Below, in pieces: positions 24,278 through 43,663 of a stretch of DNA of 43,663 nucleotides. A program made the translations under genes and the position numbers. Location of the stretch: sequence record PZ445529.1; one strand, written 5' to 3'. Below the pieces are notes generated by a model. It was not told the DNA's origin and searched no databases. It saw only the letters and a program-made list of their open reading frames with translations. Origin of the DNA: a phage. Within the stretch, counting starts at the first letter, position 1, and every line of letters begins with the position of its first letter.

Positions 24278-24912
24278 CTTACGAATCCGATAGCTGTCTT
24301 AAGGGTGACGGACACCGTTGCCGTGTTATGCCCGTTGTCAGTGTACGACAAGCTCGAACGCTCGACCACGAATAAACCTGTTTCGCCATCCGGCGCGGTG
24401 ACGACAAACGGCTTGACGAAGTGCCCGCGAAGGAAGTTGTAAACCAGTTTGGGGTCGCACCACTTGTCAGTAGTCAGTCCGATGAATTGCACGGGGAACT
24501 GTTTCGTTTCGGCGTTCGGGCCGTCCGCGATGTTCTGACCGTAACCGTTACCGAATTGCAATTCCTCGGACCGGAAAGACAACTGCACGTCTCCGCCGCC
24601 TTGCAATTGCATATGCCAGTAATAGGGCCATTCGTTTGACCGCGGGTCGTGCGCTTCGATTAGCTCATAAACCACACCGGCTTTTGTCGGTCCTGCCCAG
24701 TTATCCGCCAGGGTGATGACGGTGTTAGAGTTGAATGCCGCAATTTTTCCGGTGTAGTCGTTGCCGTCGATGCGGGTAAATACGCGGACCTTCCCGATCT
24801 CGCTCAAGAACGCCGTTCCCGCGCCCGTTACGGTCTTACTTCCTTTCGTTAGTGTGATTGTACCTTGCGCCATAAAAAAGCCCCCACGTTGTAGTGAGGG
24901 CCATTTTATCAT
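24274..24912 (-). CDS. minor tail protein (lambda M-like)
   Basis: 212 aa; start overlaps tape measure stop (ATGA). Confidence 0.6.
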   Translation of the reverse strand: MIKWPSLQRGGFFMAQGTITLTKGSKTVTGAGTAFLSEIGKVRVFTRIDGNDYTGKIAAFNSNTVITLADNWAGPTKAGVVYELIEAHDPRSNEWPYYWHMQLQGGGDVQLSFRSEELQFGNGYGQNIADGPNAETKQFPVQFIGLTTDKWCDPKLVYNFLRGHFVKPFVVTAPDGETGLFVVERSSLSYTDNGHNTATVSVTLKTAIGFVR

Positions 24913-27551
24913 CGTTTGTAAAGTACACCACCCGGTTTCGTCGCTTTCACGATCTCGGCCTTGACCGCCTCGGTGATTTGCTTTCCGAACGCCTGCGCGG
25001 TGCGTGGGTCCGGCCCGCTCACACTGGCATCCGTCTTACCGGTCCCCATGTTCACGTTGGTCGTTACAATCATCCCACCCCCAACACCGGCAGCGGCAAC
25101 GCCCAGCTTACCGTCAGGCCCGCGCTTCAGTGGCATGATGGCCTCGGGTCCGGCCTCACCCATCAATCCAGCGCCTTTAGCGAACGCCTGGACGCCATAA
25201 CTGAAAAAGGTAGGCTGGCTTACCACTTTCCCCGAATAGGCAGCGAGATTGCCTCCTGCGTACGCTCCGCCGTCCGCATTCTTAGTGAGGCCGGAGAAGA
25301 TAGCGCCGAACAATCCGTTTTTGCCGCCGTCGCCACCGAAAGCGCTAACGATGGACTTGAATGCTTGCGATGTAGCCAGCTTGATTAATTCGCTCAGGAT
25401 GGACTTAACCATATCCTTTGCGTTCAGCTTGCCAGTCTCGAAAAACTCGTTCATCGTGTCCTGCATAGCGCCGAACGTGAATTTTGTGAGTGACGTCATC
25501 TGCGTATAGCCGTTACCCATTTCATCCACGCTATCCTTAAGCCCGCGGCTGAATCCATCCCATAGCGAGGCGTTAGCACCGGTCTGTGCTTCCTGCACTT
25601 CGCGCAGTTTAGACACCGCCAGATCAATATCGGTATCGCTAGCGCCCACCCGCTTAAGGCGGTCAATTAGCTGCAATTCTTCGCGCAGGTTAGCCGCTTC
25701 GCGAGTGGAAAGCGCATAGCCCGCCGCGGTGGCTTTTAGCTCGGCGTTCTGGTTCTTGACGAAGGCGTCGATCTGCGCGTGCGCCTTGACCTGCTTCTCT
25801 TTCGCGTCCAGCAATTTGGCTTCTTCGACGATCTGCTCGCGTACTTCCTTCACGCGTCCGAATTCGACCATCTGCTGCTTTTCTGCTGCCGTTAGTGCTC
25901 TTTCTTTGCTTGCTGCGATTAACTGTTCATTATCCGCGATCAGCTTGTTTAGGGCCGCTTGAGCGCGTTGCGTGCGGGTCTGCGTAGACGCGTTGGCTTC
26001 GATCTGCTTGCCGGATTCTCGAAGCTGGGCCAGTTCGCTCCGTGCAACTTCCAGCATTTTCATACCGGCATCCACGCGAACAGCCGCGGCCTTCTTCGGG
26101 GCGGGGTCTTTGTAACGCTCGTTTACCTGCTTCACCGCCTCGGCAAGCTCTTTCTCGTCAATCACGCCGCGCTTATTCAGCAAATTGAGGCGGGCGATCT
26201 CGTCGGCGCGCCTCTTCGCGTTGGTTGCGTACTCCTTCTCAAACGCGGCGCGGTCGCGGGCGGTGCGGTTGGCCTCCTCGTTCGCCTTTGCTGCTTCGTC
26301 CGCGGCGCTGGCGTTGTCCCGCTCCGCACGGTTGCGCAGGGTGAGCGACGCCACTACTTTCTCCTGGGCGACCAGTTCGCTGTAAAGCATGTTAATACGC
26401 GCTTTCTGCGCTTCAGTCATTACCCCACCGGCAGCGTTTACCGCTTTCATCTCGGCATAGTAAGCCGTGGTTAGTCGCTGCAATGACTCACGCGCTTTCA
26501 TCTCGGATTCATTGGAGGACTGCGCGCGGCCCACATCCAGGATGGCGTCCCACATTGATTTGGCTGCCGATGTGACGACGTTCATCGACCGCTCAAGCGT
26601 ACCCATGTTGGACTTGATTTCATTGGTCATGCTGGTGAACGACGCAGCGGCTGTTTTGTTAGCCAACGCAACTGCGTCTGTCTCACGACCCGCATCAACG
26701 AGCGACTGTACCTGCTGGATCTGCGCTTCGTTTACGACGTGATACTTATCCGCCAGCGCACGCAGTCCGCCAACGGGGTCGGTTGACAGCTTCGCCACCG
26801 CCGCGACCACATCCTCGATCGGCTGGCTGGACACCTTCGCGAAGTCATTCACTACCTTCGCCAGTGCGCCGAAGTCACCCCCCGCTTTCACACCCGCCGC
26901 CGCCAGCGCCTGGATTGTGTCACGCGTCTTGCGGAACGACCCGCCCATGCGCTCGGCGTTCTCGGATAGCACCAGGATCTGGTTTGCCGTCAGGCCGGAA
27001 ATGTTACCGGAAAGTGCCAGCGTCTTGTTAAGCGCGGCGACCTGGTTCTCCGCGCGGGACGTAATTGCCACCCCTACGCCTAACGTTGCCGTTAGTGCTG
27101 CAATGCCGATCCCTACCGGACCGAGGAAGCCAGCAACAAAACGCAGCGTGTTACCCAATCCACCGAACGCCCCAGTTAACTGCGGTAACTGCTGAAGCAT
27201 GACGCGGTGCACCGGCATACCCATCTCAAGCGTTACAGCGATATCCTGTAACTGGAATGCGGCGTTACGCGAGGCAAAGCCCAGGTTTTTGGTCGACATG
27301 CCTAACCTGTTGGCAAGTCGCTCCTGTTTCGTCATGCCATCGGCGGCGCGCTGCGATTCAGTCGCCAGCTTCTCCATTCCGCCCGCGGCGTCACTCGTCA
27401 CCTTTTTGGATTTGCCGAGGGTGTCGTTTAATTTCTTAACCTTGTTTTCTGTGTTCTCGGATTTCTGTGCGAAGGAGTCCAGCACAGTATTTGCCGTTCT
27501 GATTTGTGCAACATCAGCCTTCAGCGTGATGCCTGCCGCTTGATCTGCCAT
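24909..27551 (-). CDS. tail tape measure protein
   Basis: 880 aa, Ala/coiled-coil-rich, between chaperone genes and the M/L/K/I/J-like genes. Confidence 0.8.
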   Translation of the reverse strand: MADQAAGITLKADVAQIRTANTVLDSFAQKSENTENKVKKLNDTLGKSKKVTSDAAGGMEKLATESQRAADGMTKQERLANRLGMSTKNLGFASRNAAFQLQDIAVTLEMGMPVHRVMLQQLPQLTGAFGGLGNTLRFVAGFLGPVGIGIAALTATLGVGVAITSRAENQVAALNKTLALSGNISGLTANQILVLSENAERMGGSFRKTRDTIQALAAAGVKAGGDFGALAKVVNDFAKVSSQPIEDVVAAVAKLSTDPVGGLRALADKYHVVNEAQIQQVQSLVDAGRETDAVALANKTAAASFTSMTNEIKSNMGTLERSMNVVTSAAKSMWDAILDVGRAQSSNESEMKARESLQRLTTAYYAEMKAVNAAGGVMTEAQKARINMLYSELVAQEKVVASLTLRNRAERDNASAADEAAKANEEANRTARDRAAFEKEYATNAKRRADEIARLNLLNKRGVIDEKELAEAVKQVNERYKDPAPKKAAAVRVDAGMKMLEVARSELAQLRESGKQIEANASTQTRTQRAQAALNKLIADNEQLIAASKERALTAAEKQQMVEFGRVKEVREQIVEEAKLLDAKEKQVKAHAQIDAFVKNQNAELKATAAGYALSTREAANLREELQLIDRLKRVGASDTDIDLAVSKLREVQEAQTGANASLWDGFSRGLKDSVDEMGNGYTQMTSLTKFTFGAMQDTMNEFFETGKLNAKDMVKSILSELIKLATSQAFKSIVSAFGGDGGKNGLFGAIFSGLTKNADGGAYAGGNLAAYSGKVVSQPTFFSYGVQAFAKGAGLMGEAGPEAIMPLKRGPDGKLGVAAAGVGGGMIVTTNVNMGTGKTDASVSGPDPRTAQAFGKQITEAVKAEIVKATKPGGVLYKR

Positions 27552-27618
27552 TATGCAGTCCCCTTTTTATGCAGTTGCCGATTGTCATTGTATCAGCGAT
27601 TTTAAAACAATCCTTATT

Positions 27619-27787
27619 CAGTCTCAGACGAGGGGGGCCACTGACCCCCGTCTAGTCTGAAAGACTGGGGTGCTGTCCCGCTGTCCCGATCGGCTAAACC
27701 CCGCGGCAGCACTGGTGGGGACGGGGTGCTGTCCCGCTTTGTCCCGCCCCTTGTTTGTCCCGCTTTTTGTCCCGCTTAGTTTATGCA
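27619..27787. repeat. copy B of the 169-bp element (palindrome + GTCCCG iterons), in the gap between the GT chaperone stop and the tape measure start
   Basis: Exact match to 43616-43663 + 1-121; followed at 27826-27857 by extra inverted GGGACA/GTCCCG copies (gggacaaaacgggacgtcccgatctgtcccgc). Confidence 0.9.
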
Positions 27788-27856
27788 ATAAATTCGAATA
27801 GGTATGCACATTTCAGGGGTGGGACAAAACGGGACGTCCCGATCTGTCCCGCTGCA

Positions 27857-28533
27857 TTATGCGGGGTTCTGCTGCGCCATTTCATCAAGCGCGATTCGTT
27901 CCATTAGCTTGATATCTTTAAACGCGCGCTGTTCGTTTTCGATACCGTGCATCTTAAATAGCCACTCCAGCACGCCGTAGTCGATGCCGTATGCGCCACC
28001 AAATCCGGTGCGCCATTGCGTGGAGCAATCTGTGAAGACTGCGACTACCTTCGCGTTGTCGGGCCATAGCGCAACAGGCGGACAAACATCTTCGGGGGCC
28101 GCACCCCATAAACTTGCGGCTAAATCTTCGGAGGGTGGCGGCGGGCCATAAAAGCGTCGCGCCGCCTCAATTAGTTTTTTTCACGCAACCCCATCAGCTC
28201 GAGATAGTACGACGTGTGAAACACACCGAACGCGCGCGGATAGTTGACCACCAGGCGGCGGACGTTCTCCGCGTTAAATTCGTCTGGCAGATTCCAGCCT
28301 TCCGCGACGTGCATGATGGCCTCGACCATAACGTTAAAGCCGTCTGGGTCATTGTCGTCATATTCCGATAGCTTTCGTTCGGTGTCCTGCATGGTTTGCG
28401 AAAATTCGTCGATCGGGCGGTGGCGTACGGTAAACGTCATCTTGCCCGGCTCGTTCTCGCCAGGACGCGGGATCTCAATCGGCAGCTTAAAGGTCGGTTT
28501 AGGGTCAAGTGTGAAGAGTGGTGCTTTAGCCAT
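27857..28533 (-). CDS. tail assembly chaperone GT-like fusion made by programmed -1 frameshift
   Basis: Slippery heptamer A-AAA-AAC at the last sense codons of G; the -1 frame is open for 105 codons to a stop at 27857-27859 with no start codon near its beginning. Confidence 0.6.
28171..28533 (-). CDS. tail assembly chaperone (lambda G-like)
   Basis: 120 aa; ATG 28533 with RBS GGAGA; between major tail protein and tape measure; ends ...R E K N * over a run of seven A. Confidence 0.65.
   Translation of the reverse strand: MAKAPLFTLDPKPTFKLPIEIPRPGENEPGKMTFTVRHRPIDEFSQTMQDTERKLSEYDDNDPDGFNVMVEAIMHVAEGWNLPDEFNAENVRRLVVNYPRAFGVFHTSYYLELMGLREKN
28174..28180 (-). promoter_or_regulatory. slippery heptamer AAAAAAC for the G/GT -1 frameshift
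   Basis: Plus-strand gtttttt; XXXYYYZ pattern in register with the zero frame. Confidence 0.6.
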
Positions 28534-28545
28534 TGTAGTATTCTC

Positions 28546-28572
28546 CAATAAAAAAGGGGCCGTGCTGGCCCC
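28546..28572 (-). terminator. Rho-independent terminator after the major tail protein gene
   Basis: ggggcc-agcac-ggcccc followed by TTTTTTATT on the minus strand. Confidence 0.65.
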
Positions 28573-28589
28573 ATATTAACACCCGCTAT

Positions 28590-29306
28590 TTAAGCGACCA
28601 GATCCTTACGGTAGATAACCATGTCAGACTGCATGGTCAGAGTGGCTTGTACGGTTTCCACGTTGTTTACTTCAGCGGACGGAATCTTCTGGAAAGATAC
28701 CTTAGCCGGGTAAATACGGATCTCACCTTTGCCGCTTGCTGCCGCTGGGTTCGTGAACTTAATCACAGTGGTTTTCTGTGTGTCGTCCAGGTCTTCCAGG
28801 ATTGGGCGGATCGGGTCTTCTTCGTCGTGGGTGAAGGTGTAAGTCTGGACCAACGGGTTTTTCGTGGTGTTAAGACTGATTGCGGTGTTCACCTGCAACG
28901 GCTGGAAGGTAGTAGTCTGCTGGTCGCCACCAGACACGGCGACGTTAGTAATGAAAGGGAAGTCGATAAAGCCCGACACCTTCACCACTTCGCCCGGAGT
29001 GCCTGCGCTGAAAGCGCCGGTCGGGTATTTTGTGACGTCTTTGGTGTCGAAGCGCGCCAGCGTAACGTCGTTGGTGTCTACTTTACCCACGATGAATGCG
29101 CGGTTAAGCGCTCGGACCCACGGGGTTTTAGTGAACATAACAACGTCGCCAACAACCAGACCATGCGAAGCCGCACAGGTAATTACGCAACCTTGCGTAA
29201 GGTCGGAGATCGACGCTGCGGCGTTGGTAGCTGCCGTAACAGCGATGCCGCTACCCAGTACGGACCCGATCTGGACGCTGGACCCGTTAGGAAGTTGATA
29301 ACCCAT
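28590..29306 (-). CDS. major tail protein
   Basis: 238 aa; RBS AGGAG; followed by terminator then chaperone genes. Confidence 0.7.
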   Translation of the reverse strand: MGYQLPNGSSVQIGSVLGSGIAVTAATNAAASISDLTQGCVITCAASHGLVVGDVVMFTKTPWVRALNRAFIVGKVDTNDVTLARFDTKDVTKYPTGAFSAGTPGEVVKVSGFIDFPFITNVAVSGGDQQTTTFQPLQVNTAISLNTTKNPLVQTYTFTHDEEDPIRPILEDLDDTQKTTVIKFTNPAAASGKGEIRIYPAKVSFQKIPSAEVNNVETVQATLTMQSDMVIYRKDLVA

Positions 29307-43552: not shown

Positions 43553-43615
43553 TAGTTCCGCGACGACCGCAATCCGCAACATGCTGCCGTGTATTTTGCA
43601 ATCCAGGATTTTATG

Positions 43616-43663
43616 CAGTCTCAGACGAGGGGGGCCACTGACCCCCGTCTAGTCTGAAAGACT
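43616..43663. repeat. 5' part of copy A of the 169-bp element (imperfect GC-rich palindrome cagtctcagacgaggggggccactgacccccgtctagtctgaaagact)
   Basis: 43616-43663 is identical to 27619-27666; window end joins window start seamlessly as in copy B. Confidence 0.9.

What the first reader, a model, noticed from the sequence alone, without database searches (positions are those of the whole stretch)
27857..28533. Programmed -1 frameshift at AAAAAAC producing a GT-like tail chaperone fusion
The G-like chaperone gene ends ...cgt gaa aaa aac taa. The heptamer A-AAA-AAC is in register for -1 slippage, and the -1 frame stays open for 105 codons to a stop at 27857-27859 with no start codon near its beginning. 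This matches the conserved G/GT arrangement of long-tailed phages, with an unusually late slip site at the final sense codons.
Basis: partly seen in the sequence, partly recalled or inferred. Interest (0 to 1): 0.4.

Follow-up and report, generated by a model that had tools for sequence, protein, structure and literature searches.

The report
Phage tail chaperone G/GT frameshift site
This is the ordinary, conserved -1 ribosomal frameshift that lets a long-tailed E. coli phage make a short and a long tail-assembly chaperone from one gene. It is almost certainly real, but it is a textbook arrangement that database records for this phage genus have simply not annotated.

Summary
On the minus strand, a 120-aa gene (28533-28171, Pfam Phage_TAC_4) ends CGT GAA AAA AAC TAA. 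The heptamer A_AAA_AAC (28180-28174) is in register. The -1 frame opens exactly at the heptamer, because a -1-frame TGA sits at 28183-28181. It then runs 105 codons to TAA at 27859-27857, with no ATG/GTG/TTG for its first 69 codons, and it encodes a DUF1799 domain.

The genes lie between the tail tube gene and the tape measure gene of a Dhillonvirus-like phage. Substitutions among 18 relatives fall on third codon positions of the -1 frame, so that frame is coding.

The same heptamer, followed directly by a stop, is present in all 52 related IMG/VR loci and in T1-like phages. Two related records, which use other slip sites, already annotate a joined frameshift product. The "unusually late" slip site is therefore the norm for this family.

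A 30-nt GC-rich hairpin (28166-28137) starts 7 nt after the heptamer. It coincides with the strongest suppression of synonymous variation in G-T and recurs in relatives, so it is probably the stimulator.

Verdict: a new member of a known kind, of low interest. No experimental data exist for this phage.

The parts
28171..28533 (-). Gene G: short tail assembly (tape measure) chaperone, 120 aa, 13.96 kDa, including the TAA stop at 28173-28171
   Evidence: ORF and translation. Pfam PF08748 Phage_TAC_4, E 1.4e-23, full length. phrog_569, E 1e-40. Relatives annotate the same 363-nt gene. Variable sites at codon positions 1/2/3 are 10/6/78.
28543..28546 (-). GGAG ribosome-binding site, 9 nt upstream of the G start codon ATG at 28533
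   Evidence: Read directly from the sequence.
28174..28180 (-). Slippery heptamer A_AAA_AAC, in register with the G frame (codons AAA 28179-28177 and AAC 28176-28174)
   Evidence: Invariant in 18 Dhillonvirus sequences, 52 IMG/VR loci, 3 metagenomic contigs and 5 T1-like phages. The same heptamer is the proven IS1 frameshift site (PMC4066793).
28181..28183 (-). TGA stop in the -1 frame immediately 5' of the heptamer; it limits productive shifting to the heptamer
28171..28173 (-). 0-frame stop TAA directly abutting the heptamer; a possible 'shifty stop' contribution
   Evidence: A stop follows the heptamer directly in every relative that has a heptamer.
28137..28166 (-). Putative stimulatory hairpin GGCGGCG-(16 nt)-CGCCGCC, starting 7 nt after the heptamer; 30 nt, deltaG -15.6 kcal/mol
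   Evidence: Folding.
- Only 0.25% of all 30-nt windows and 1.2% of GC-matched windows on this strand are as stable.
- deltadeltaG/nt is 0.313 and the hairpin ranks 1 of 168 in the 197 nt downstream.
- Synonymous variation among 18 relatives is suppressed exactly across it: 2/13 versus 142/205 third positions, p = 1.7e-4.
- A hairpin at 6-9 nt is found in 38 of 40 unique related junctions.
27857..28174 (-). T segment: 105 codons in the -1 frame (CTA at 28174-28172 to GCA at 27862-27860) plus the TAA stop at 27859-27857. It is expressed only as the C-terminal part of GT. GT = join(28533..28174, 28174..27857) with base 28174 read twice; 225 aa, 25.6 kDa.
- Pfam PF08809 DUF1799, E 2.8e-21; phrog_680, E 8.5e-31.
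- phrog_17368 is a 213-position profile that matches G at positions 1-107 and T at positions 150-212.
- Variable sites at codon positions 1/2/3 are 22/9/69, including the part upstream of any start codon.
- Masses.
28590..29306 (-). Upstream neighbour: tail tube (major tail) protein gene
   Evidence: Pfam PF08813, E 1.1e-32.
24909..27551 (-). Downstream neighbour: tape measure protein gene, 880 aa
   Evidence: Pfam PF06791, E 1.4e-42, and PF09718.

Best explanation
The window is a Dhillonvirus-like E. coli siphophage genome. Its tail gene G (28533-28171, minus strand) is translated in two ways.

Most ribosomes stop at TAA (28173-28171) and make the 120-aa chaperone G.

A minority slip back one nucleotide on A_AAA_AAC (28180-28174). 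At that point tRNA-Lys sits on AAA in the P site and tRNA-Asn on AAC in the A site, and both re-pair with AAA AAA. Those ribosomes continue in the -1 frame for 105 codons to TAA at 27859-27857. The product is a 225-aa GT fusion with the junction ...L-R-E-K-N-L-I-E-A-A....

A GC-rich hairpin starting 7 nt downstream (28166-28137) probably slows the ribosome over the heptamer and raises the slip rate. The stop codon directly after the heptamer may add to this.

By analogy with lambda G/GT, many copies of G coat the tape measure protein. The rare GT uses its T (DUF1799) domain to recruit tail tube protein. The fixed slip frequency sets the G:GT ratio needed for tail assembly.

Shown here: the sequence anatomy, the domain identities, coding selection in the -1 frame, and conservation of the heptamer and hairpin.

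Inferred: that slippage is ribosomal, its efficiency, the stimulatory role of the hairpin, and the protein functions.
For: - Anatomy: the heptamer is in register and the productive overlap is only 10 nt. The -1 frame has no start codon for 69 codons.
- Synteny: tail tube gene, G, T, tape measure gene.
- Domains: G is PF08748 (E 1.4e-23) and T is PF08809 (E 2.8e-21).
- Fusion profile: one PHROG profile of 213 positions matches G at its N-terminal half and T at its C-terminal end, consistent with homologues being deposited as single polypeptides. Joined 'frameshift product' CDSs are annotated in related phages Scapp and Sin4.
- Selection: among 18 related genomes, variable sites in the T frame fall at codon positions 1/2/3 as 22/9/69. 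In the first 95 nt after the hairpin the counts are 8/2/25, far upstream of any start codon.
- Conservation: AAAAAAC plus a stop is invariant in 52/52 IMG/VR loci whose T domain is only 28-40% identical. It is also invariant in contigs with 58-61% identical G and in T1-like phages. The length of the A run varies from 6 to 8, while the in-frame heptamer does not vary.
- Hairpin: stability percentile, deltadeltaG/nt of 0.313 against the 0.09 threshold of PMC4066793, suppression of synonymous variation (p = 1.7e-4), and recurrence at 6-9 nt in 38/40 unique junctions with different arm sequences.
- Precedent: A_AAA_AAC is a proven natural -1 site in E. coli, in IS1. The lambda G:GT ratio of 30:1 is critical for tail assembly (PMC5009743).
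Against: - There are no protein-level or reporter data for this phage or for any Dhillonvirus. Two literature searches for the genus or HK578 together with 'frameshift' found nothing relevant.
- In E. coli, A_AAA_AAC is much less shift-prone than A_AAA_AAG (PMC5009743), so the efficiency may be low.
- The hairpin is not significantly more stable than dinucleotide shuffles of its own GC-rich segment (z = -1.5, 17/200).
- Within-clade covariation is weak, at 9/500 and 20/500 shuffles. The arms are triplet repeats that pair in several registers.
- Rtp and Stenotrophomonas S72 lack a qualifying hairpin.
- The suppression of synonymous variation over the hairpin could partly reflect other constraints.
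- The function of the DUF1799 T domain rests only on analogy with lambda.
Confidence: 0.72

Rival explanations
1. Ribosomal -1 shift, but by single-tRNA 'shifty stop' slippage. After AAC is decoded and translocated, peptidyl-tRNA-Asn waits in the P site with UAA in the A site. Slow termination lets it slip from AAC to AAA, and CUA is read next. The product is the same as in tandem slippage (...E-K-N-L-I-E...), but the adjacent stop codon, not only the hairpin, sets the efficiency.
For: The 0-frame stop abuts the heptamer in every relative with a heptamer, even where the -1 frame is open up to 259 nt upstream and would allow an earlier site. In relatives with only an A_AAG or A_AAA site, the stop is one codon away. 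Stimulation of shifting by flanking stop codons in E. coli is established (Weiss et al. 1987, cited in PMC5009743).
Against: - The full heptamer, not just the AAC codon, is invariant. That is expected for two-tRNA slippage.
- With the P site on AAC, the hairpin would begin only 4 nt from the A-site codon, a less typical spacing.
- A short overlap can also be explained by the cost of dual coding.
- Sequence alone cannot separate this from tandem slippage.
Confidence: 0.15
2. Transcriptional slippage. RNA polymerase adds one extra A in the A7 run (28181-28175), giving a subpopulation of mRNAs in which G and T are in one frame. The junction would read ...E-K-K-L-I-E....
For: There is a run of seven A residues in the window and eight in L052 and L053. 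Transcriptional slippage on A/T runs is a known alternative route to the same kind of fusion (PMC5009743).
Against: - Most relatives have only six A residues, while the in-frame register X_XXY_YYZ and the terminal C are invariant.
- Other relatives use G_GGA_AAC or A_AAG, which are ribosomal but not polymerase slip sites.
- A hairpin conserved at the 6-9 nt spacing typical of ribosomal frameshifting has no role in polymerase slippage.
- Runs this short are, from general knowledge, poor slippage templates for E. coli RNA polymerase.
Confidence: 0.05
3. T is translated on its own, by internal initiation or reinitiation. One route is the GTG at 27973 or the ATG at 27952, giving the 38-aa or 31-aa 'hypothetical protein' annotated in public Dhillonvirus records. 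Another is a non-canonical start near the G stop.
For: Public records annotate exactly such fragments: SECphi18 gp35 'DUF1799' at 96 nt, and 117-nt hypothetical proteins in Opt212 and CS16. A 38-position PHROG exists for them (phrog_14875).
Against: - The DUF1799 match spans residues 25-101 of the 107-codon frame, so those starts would cut away two thirds of the domain.
- The -1 frame shows codon-position selection from just after the hairpin, far upstream of these starts.
- There is no ATG/GTG/TTG and no Shine-Dalgarno sequence near the start of the frame.
- The N-terminal residues of the frame (KKLIEAA) are conserved right up to the heptamer in distant relatives.
Confidence: 0.03
4. Artefact. 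A homopolymer miscount in the A run splits what is really one continuous gene, or G-T is a decaying pseudogene.
For: Homopolymer runs are error-prone in several sequencing chemistries. Adding one A would fuse the frames.
Against: The same A count, the same abutting stop and the same frame relation recur in 18 unique Dhillonvirus sequences and dozens of independent metagenome assemblies. Both frames are under purifying selection. The stop after the heptamer is conserved, which a continuous gene would not need.
Confidence: 0.02

Closest known systems
Tape measure chaperone pair of T1-like phages (Drexlerviridae). Examples: Rtp rtp35/rtp36, T1 gp40/gp39, and Klebsiella phage Sin4 CPT_Sin4_039/040, which is annotated as a frameshift product.
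   Same: - Same Pfam families (PF08748 and PF08809), with the T domain 33-40% identical.
- Same position between the tail tube and tape measure genes.
- In Rtp, KMB25, SH6, K50_evo24 and YP10S2, the same A_AAA_AAC followed directly by TAA.
- In four of those five, a hairpin 6-7 nt downstream.
- Genome papers on T1-like phages state that a conserved frameshift is present (PMC4319613 and PMC6763657).
   Different: - The sequences are diverged; G is not detectably similar at the DNA level.
- The hairpin arms differ (GGCGGUUU/AAACCGCC versus GGCGGCG/CGCCGCC).
- Some T1-like lineages use A_AAG or A_AAA one codon before the stop instead (Sin4, phiJLA23).
- In Dhillonviruses, a 305-383 nt repeat-rich non-coding gap separates T from the tape measure gene, against roughly 35-45 nt in the T1-like phages checked.
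Bacteriophage lambda G/GT (Levin, Hendrix & Casjens 1993) and the conserved tail chaperone frameshift of Xu, Hendrix & Duda 2004
   Same: - Two overlapping ORFs between the major tail gene and the tape measure gene.
- The second ORF is in the -1 frame without its own start.
- The slip site lies near the 3' end of G.
- The expected result is a low GT:G ratio that matters for assembly (30:1 in lambda; PMC5009743).
   Different: - There is no sequence membership: neither ORF hits any other Pfam family at E <= 0.01.
- Lambda uses G_GGA_AAG several codons before the G stop (own knowledge). Here the site is A_AAA_AAC at the last two codons.
- A conserved downstream hairpin is present here.
IS1 insA-insB' -1 frameshift
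   Same: The identical heptamer A_AAA_AAC works in E. coli and makes a low-abundance fusion protein (PMC4066793).
   Different: The proteins are unrelated. IS1 has no established stimulator, whereas a conserved hairpin follows the heptamer here.
E. coli dnaX and IS3/IS911-type frameshift cassettes (upstream SD-like element, heptamer, downstream structure)
   Same: A heptamer is followed by a hairpin at 4-10 nt, meeting the empirical criteria of PMC4066793. The environmental relatives (L018-L054) also carry GGAG 8 nt upstream, within the proven 6-17 nt range.
   Different: The window and its genus have no SD-like element upstream. The heptamer ends in C rather than the far more slippery G. Here the shift lengthens the product, whereas in dnaX it shortens it.

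Membership tests
Long-tailed phage G/GT tail assembly chaperone pair with conserved -1 programmed frameshift (Xu, Hendrix & Duda 2004) | The pair of ORFs lies between the major tail (tube) gene and the tape measure gene, on the same strand | tested here: met
   Tail tube gene at 29306-28590 (PF08813), G at 28533-28171, T to 27857, tape measure gene at 27551-24909 (PF06791, PF09718).
Long-tailed phage G/GT tail assembly chaperone pair with conserved -1 programmed frameshift (Xu, Hendrix & Duda 2004) | The second ORF overlaps the end of the first, is in the -1 frame, and has no start codon or ribosome-binding site of its own | tested here: met
   10-nt overlap. The first ATG/GTG/TTG is at codon 70 of 107, and there is no SD-like motif upstream.
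Long-tailed phage G/GT tail assembly chaperone pair with conserved -1 programmed frameshift (Xu, Hendrix & Duda 2004) | A slippery sequence (X_XXY_YYZ) lies in the 0-frame register inside the overlap | tested here: met
   A_AAA_AAC at 28180-28174.
Long-tailed phage G/GT tail assembly chaperone pair with conserved -1 programmed frameshift (Xu, Hendrix & Duda 2004) | The arrangement is conserved in relatives despite sequence divergence | tested here: met
   Present in 52/52 IMG/VR loci, 3 metagenomic contigs and 11 annotated phages from other genera. All have a slip site within the last 2-3 codons of G.
Long-tailed phage G/GT tail assembly chaperone pair with conserved -1 programmed frameshift (Xu, Hendrix & Duda 2004) | Both G and GT are made, GT at a low fixed ratio; both are needed for tail assembly and both are absent from virions | not testable with these tools
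   This needs proteomics, a reporter assay and genetics. No paper on this genus was found.
Pfam PF08748 Phage_TAC_4 (G) and PF08809 DUF1799 (T) | The whole-protein score exceeds the curated gathering threshold | tested here: met
   G scores 83.9 bits against a cutoff of 21.1. T scores 76.0 bits against a cutoff of 26.
Lambda gpG / gpT sequence families | Detectable sequence match to the lambda-type G and T Pfam models | tested here: not met
   The Pfam scan at E <= 0.01 returned only PF08748 and PF08809. The NCBIfam scan of the fusion returned nothing.
dnaX/IS911-type tripartite -1 frameshift signal | [quoted passage not shown] | tested here: not met
   None is present in the window or in any Dhillonvirus sequence. 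One is present in the environmental clade (criteria from PMC4066793).
dnaX/IS911-type tripartite -1 frameshift signal | A hairpin of 17-140 nt starts 4-10 nt after the motif, has deltaG_unfold >= 7.6 kcal/mol, and is more structured than its surroundings | tested here: met
   30 nt, spacer 7 nt, 15.6 kcal/mol, deltadeltaG/nt 0.313 against a threshold of 0.09, rank 1 of 168.
Any curated RNA family of frameshift elements (Rfam) | Match at the gathering score | tested here: not met
   No Rfam match at gathering score anywhere in the window. Only chance-level hits appear in 27400-28700.

The most novel reading that the evidence does not exclude
The heptamer A_AAA_AAC, the stop codon directly abutting it, and a hairpin 6-9 nt downstream form one conserved three-part cassette. 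It is shared by Dhillonviruses, T1-like phages and a large uncultured clade. In it the stop codon is a working part: competition between termination and slippage, rather than the hairpin alone, sets the G:GT ratio. The ratio would then depend on host release-factor activity and growth state.
Probability: 0.2. Interest if true: 0.4.

Novelty: new member of a known kind. Interest (0 to 1): 0.2.

Why it matters
- Annotation: the six Dhillonvirus records inspected list the T region only as 31-38-aa 'hypothetical' or 'DUF1799' fragments, or as spurious antisense ORFs. The correct feature is a joined 225-aa CDS.
- Biology: the G:GT ratio is a control point for tail assembly, and tail assembly chaperones have recently been reported as targets of bacterial Avs immune sensors (bioRxiv 10.64898/2026.01.04.697583).
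- Frameshift research: the family offers a natural series for study. It has the same heptamer and abutting stop, hairpins with different sequences, and an upstream SD-like element in only one clade.
- None of this changes current understanding.

Tried and rejected
- Protein homology search with the fused protein returned only 3 hits, so it could not give a survey of C-termini. The two G homologues do end in GLREKN.
- Sequence search of the PDB found nothing meaningful; best E was 0.84.
- AlphaFold2 on a 4-row alignment gave mean pLDDT 55.7 and pTM 0.39. That is too poor for a fold search, so none was run.
- Rfam gave no family at gathering score. NCBIfam gave no hit. No tRNA was found.
- Covariation counting on 21 environmental sequences: 92% of cells are paired, but only 2 pairs show double changes, and the result is marginal against shuffles. 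The (GCC)n/(GGC)n arms also pair when slid by 3. I therefore do not claim covariation proof of the hairpin.
- A shuffle test of the 54-nt segment gave z = -1.5, and the 91-nt segment gave z = +0.2. The hairpin is notable only against its genomic and GC-matched context and through conservation.
- An upstream SD-like stimulator was considered because of GGGG at 28191-28188. It was rejected because it does not match the tested motifs and the Gly codon's third base varies freely among relatives.
- My first script flagged L052 and L054 as exceptions. Inspection showed that both have the same heptamer and stop.
- The Xu et al. 2004 paper is not in the held library, so I could not check whether T1 or HK578-type phages are in its table.

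Full report
**What the window is.** A 1.9-kb stretch around the finding is 93-95% identical to 150+ Escherichia phages of the genus Dhillonvirus, including SECphi18, ZCEC10-12, mckay and several BASEL phages. All the genes discussed here are on the minus strand.

**Check of the observation.**
- The gene starts at ATG 28533, with GGAG 9 nt upstream. It ends CGT GAA AAA AAC TAA, with the stop at 28173-28171, and encodes 120 aa.
- AAAAAAC occupies 28180-28174 in X_XXY_YYZ register.
- The -1 frame carries TGA at 28183-28181, directly before the heptamer. It is then open through two AAA codons and 105 further codons to TAA at 27859-27857.
- A shift that yields a long product can therefore happen only within a 10-nt region made up of the heptamer and the stop.
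- The first ATG/GTG/TTG in that frame is GTG at 27973, codon 70 of 107.
- The heptamer by itself means little: there are 5 copies in the window against 8 expected. Long open off-frames are also frequent in this genome. The case therefore rests on the evidence below.

**What the two ORFs encode.**
- G is a full-length match to Pfam PF08748 Phage_TAC_4 (E 1.4e-23).
- The -1 frame matches PF08809 DUF1799 over residues 25-101 (E 2.8e-21).
- The upstream gene is a tail tube protein (PF08813). The downstream 880-aa gene is a tape measure protein (PF06791, PF09718).
- PHROGs agree. One 213-position profile (phrog_17368) matches G with its positions 1-107 and T with its positions 150-212. This suggests that homologues have been deposited as single polypeptides.
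- Joined CDSs labelled as frameshift products exist in Serratia phage Scapp and Klebsiella phage Sin4, whose T domains are homologous to this one.

**Is the -1 frame really translated from the heptamer onward?**
- I aligned G-T from 18 unique Dhillonvirus sequences: the window, 15 IMG/VR contigs and 2 RefSeq phages. The alignment has no gaps.
- In G, variable sites fall at codon positions 1/2/3 as 10/6/78. In the T frame they fall as 22/9/69.
- The stretch from +45 to +140 after the heptamer gives 8/2/25. This is well upstream of any possible start codon.
- No sequence has a stop in the frame. The frame is therefore under protein-level selection along its whole length, and there is no way to enter it except from G.

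**Conservation of the slip site.**
- A scan of IMG/VR with peptide patterns from the conceptual fusion gave 52 loci. The one pattern spanning the junction cannot match genomic DNA, because the fusion reads one base twice.
- Fifteen loci are close relatives. The other 37 share only 28-40% identity in T.
- All 52 have AAAAAAC followed directly by TGA or TAA, with T in the -1 frame. My script first flagged two as exceptions, but inspection showed the same arrangement.
- In many distant loci the -1 frame is open 70-260 nt upstream of the heptamer, yet the heptamer is still at the last two codons of G.
- Contigs encoding a 58-61% identical G also have it.
- Among annotated phages from other genera:
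  - Rtp, KMB25 (Tlsvirus), SH6 (Tunavirus), K50_evo24 and Yersinia YP10S2 end in A_AAA_AAC TAA.
  - Ralstonia YO156_1 and Stenotrophomonas S72 end in G_GGA_AAC TGA.
  - Scapp, phiJLA23, Sin4 and Diencephalon have A_AAG or A_AAA one codon before the stop.
- The 'unusually late' position is therefore the rule in this family.
- The A run varies from 6 to 8 residues, while the in-frame heptamer is constant. This argues for ribosomal rather than polymerase slippage.

**Downstream structure.**
- Seven nucleotides after the heptamer lies GGCGGCG-(16 nt)-CGCCGCC (28166-28137), with deltaG of -15.6 kcal/mol for 30 nt.
- Against shuffles of its own GC-rich segment it is unremarkable (z = -1.5).
- Only 0.25% of all 30-nt windows on this strand, and 1.2% of GC-matched windows, are as stable.
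- By the measure of Sharma et al. 2014 (PMC4066793) it scores deltadeltaG/nt of 0.313 against their 0.09 threshold. It is the most stable of 168 windows in the following 197 nt.
- Among the 18 Dhillonvirus sequences, only 2 of 13 third-codon positions from +8 to +44 vary, against 142 of 205 elsewhere in G-T (Fisher p = 1.7e-4).
- The least variable 13-codon run in the whole G-T starts at the heptamer, and variation resumes at the first base after the hairpin.
- Applying the same hairpin criteria to 40 unique junctions from all clades, 38 have a hairpin starting 6-9 nt after the motif. In most of them it ranks first.
- The arm sequences differ between clades: GGCGGCG/CGCCGCC, GCCGCCG/CGGCGGC and GGCGGUUU/AAACCGCC. 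They encode different amino acids on the 3' side (Pro-Pro, Gly-Gly, Lys-Pro-Pro).
- Formal covariation within the environmental clade is weak, and the triplet-repeat arms pair in more than one register.
- I therefore rate the hairpin as a probable stimulator, not a proven one.
- An SD-like GGAG 8 nt upstream is conserved in the environmental clade but absent from the window and its genus.

**Mechanism.**
- The best reading is tandem -1 slippage of tRNA-Lys and tRNA-Asn on A_AAA_AAC. It gives G (13.96 kDa) and GT (25.6 kDa) with the junction E-K-N-L-I-E (for the masses).
- A_AAA_AAC is the proven IS1 site. In E. coli it is much less slippery than A_AAA_AAG (PMC5009743). This fits a need for a low GT:G ratio; in lambda the ratio is 30:1 and is critical for assembly.
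- The abutting stop may contribute as a 'shifty stop'. This variant gives the same product and cannot be separated from tandem slippage by sequence.
- Polymerase slippage, independent initiation of T, and sequencing error are each contradicted by the comparative data.

**Comparison with what is known.**
- This is the standard tail-chaperone frameshift (Levin et al. 1993; Xu et al. 2004) in its T1-type sequence family.
- Papers on T1-like phages already note the conserved frameshift.
- The proteins are not members of lambda's own G and T sequence families.
- For Dhillonviruses I found no paper mentioning it.
- The records I opened annotate only G plus 31-38-aa fragments of T, or an antisense ORF. 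phrog_14875 is a 38-position family built from such fragments.

**Verdict.** The finding is real and correctly interpreted, except that its position is not unusual. It is a new, unannotated member of a well-known kind, and its interest is low. The only mildly novel possibility is that the heptamer, the abutting stop and the hairpin act as one conserved cassette.

**Limits.**
- No experimental data exist for this phage.
- The structure model was too poor to use.
- The protein database search returned almost nothing.
- I sampled only about 20 of the 1161 phage records that carry a T-domain homologue.

Noticed in passing
window 27552-27856 (minus strand, gap between the T stop and the tape measure start); second copy at 43611-43663 + 1-121: The 305-nt gap between GT and the tape measure gene is non-coding and packed with GCGGGACA motifs in direct and inverted orientation.

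- There are 13 copies in the window against 2.15 expected, reached by 0 of 100 shuffles.
- A 174-bp block (27614-27787) is repeated almost exactly (173/174) across the window's end-to-start junction, with the same motif spacing (10, 16, 12).
- The block contains a strong hairpin (CAGACUAGACGGGGGUCAGUGGCCCCCCUCGUCUG), and the whole gap folds far better than shuffles (z = -4.1).
- All 159 Dhillonvirus records that match it carry two copies.
- The gap is about 383 nt in relatives and 305 nt here.
- The function is unknown. It may be a binding-site array for a phage regulator, or a terminator/promoter boundary module.
   Followed up: partly
window 43611-43663 joined to 1-121: The repeat block runs continuously from the last 53 bases of the window into its first 121 bases. 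The window therefore appears to be a complete, circularly permuted genome opened inside this repeat.
   Followed up: partly
window 28556-28572 (minus strand), followed by a T6 run: There is an intrinsic-terminator-like hairpin (GGGGCCAGCACGGCCCC followed by TTTTTTATTG) between the tail tube gene and G. The equivalent site is annotated as a terminator in phage CS16 and in T1-like phage Sin4. It would lower transcription of G/GT and the tape measure gene relative to the tail tube gene.
   Followed up: partly
window 27857-27973 and 27857-27952 (minus strand); 27984-28151 (plus strand): Public Dhillonvirus records annotate short ORFs here: 38-aa and 31-aa 'hypothetical' or 'DUF1799' proteins, and a 55-aa antisense ORF in SECphi18. 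These look like by-products of the missed frameshift. phrog_14875 (38 positions, unknown function) is built from such fragments.
   Followed up: partly
loci L018-L054 (IMG/VR environmental clade), 8 nt upstream of the heptamer: This clade has a conserved SD-like GGAG (AAGGGAGCCAAGAG-AAAAAAC) at a spacing shown experimentally to stimulate -1 frameshifting. Together with the heptamer and hairpin it gives a dnaX-like three-part signal. The element is absent from the window's own genus.
   Followed up: partly
loci L055, L062, L063, L065 (Scapp, phiJLA23, Sin4, Diencephalon): Some homologous chaperone genes have replaced the heptamer with a bare A_AAG or A_AAA site one codon before the stop. The slip-site type therefore turns over within the family, while its position at the very end of G is kept.
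   Followed up: no
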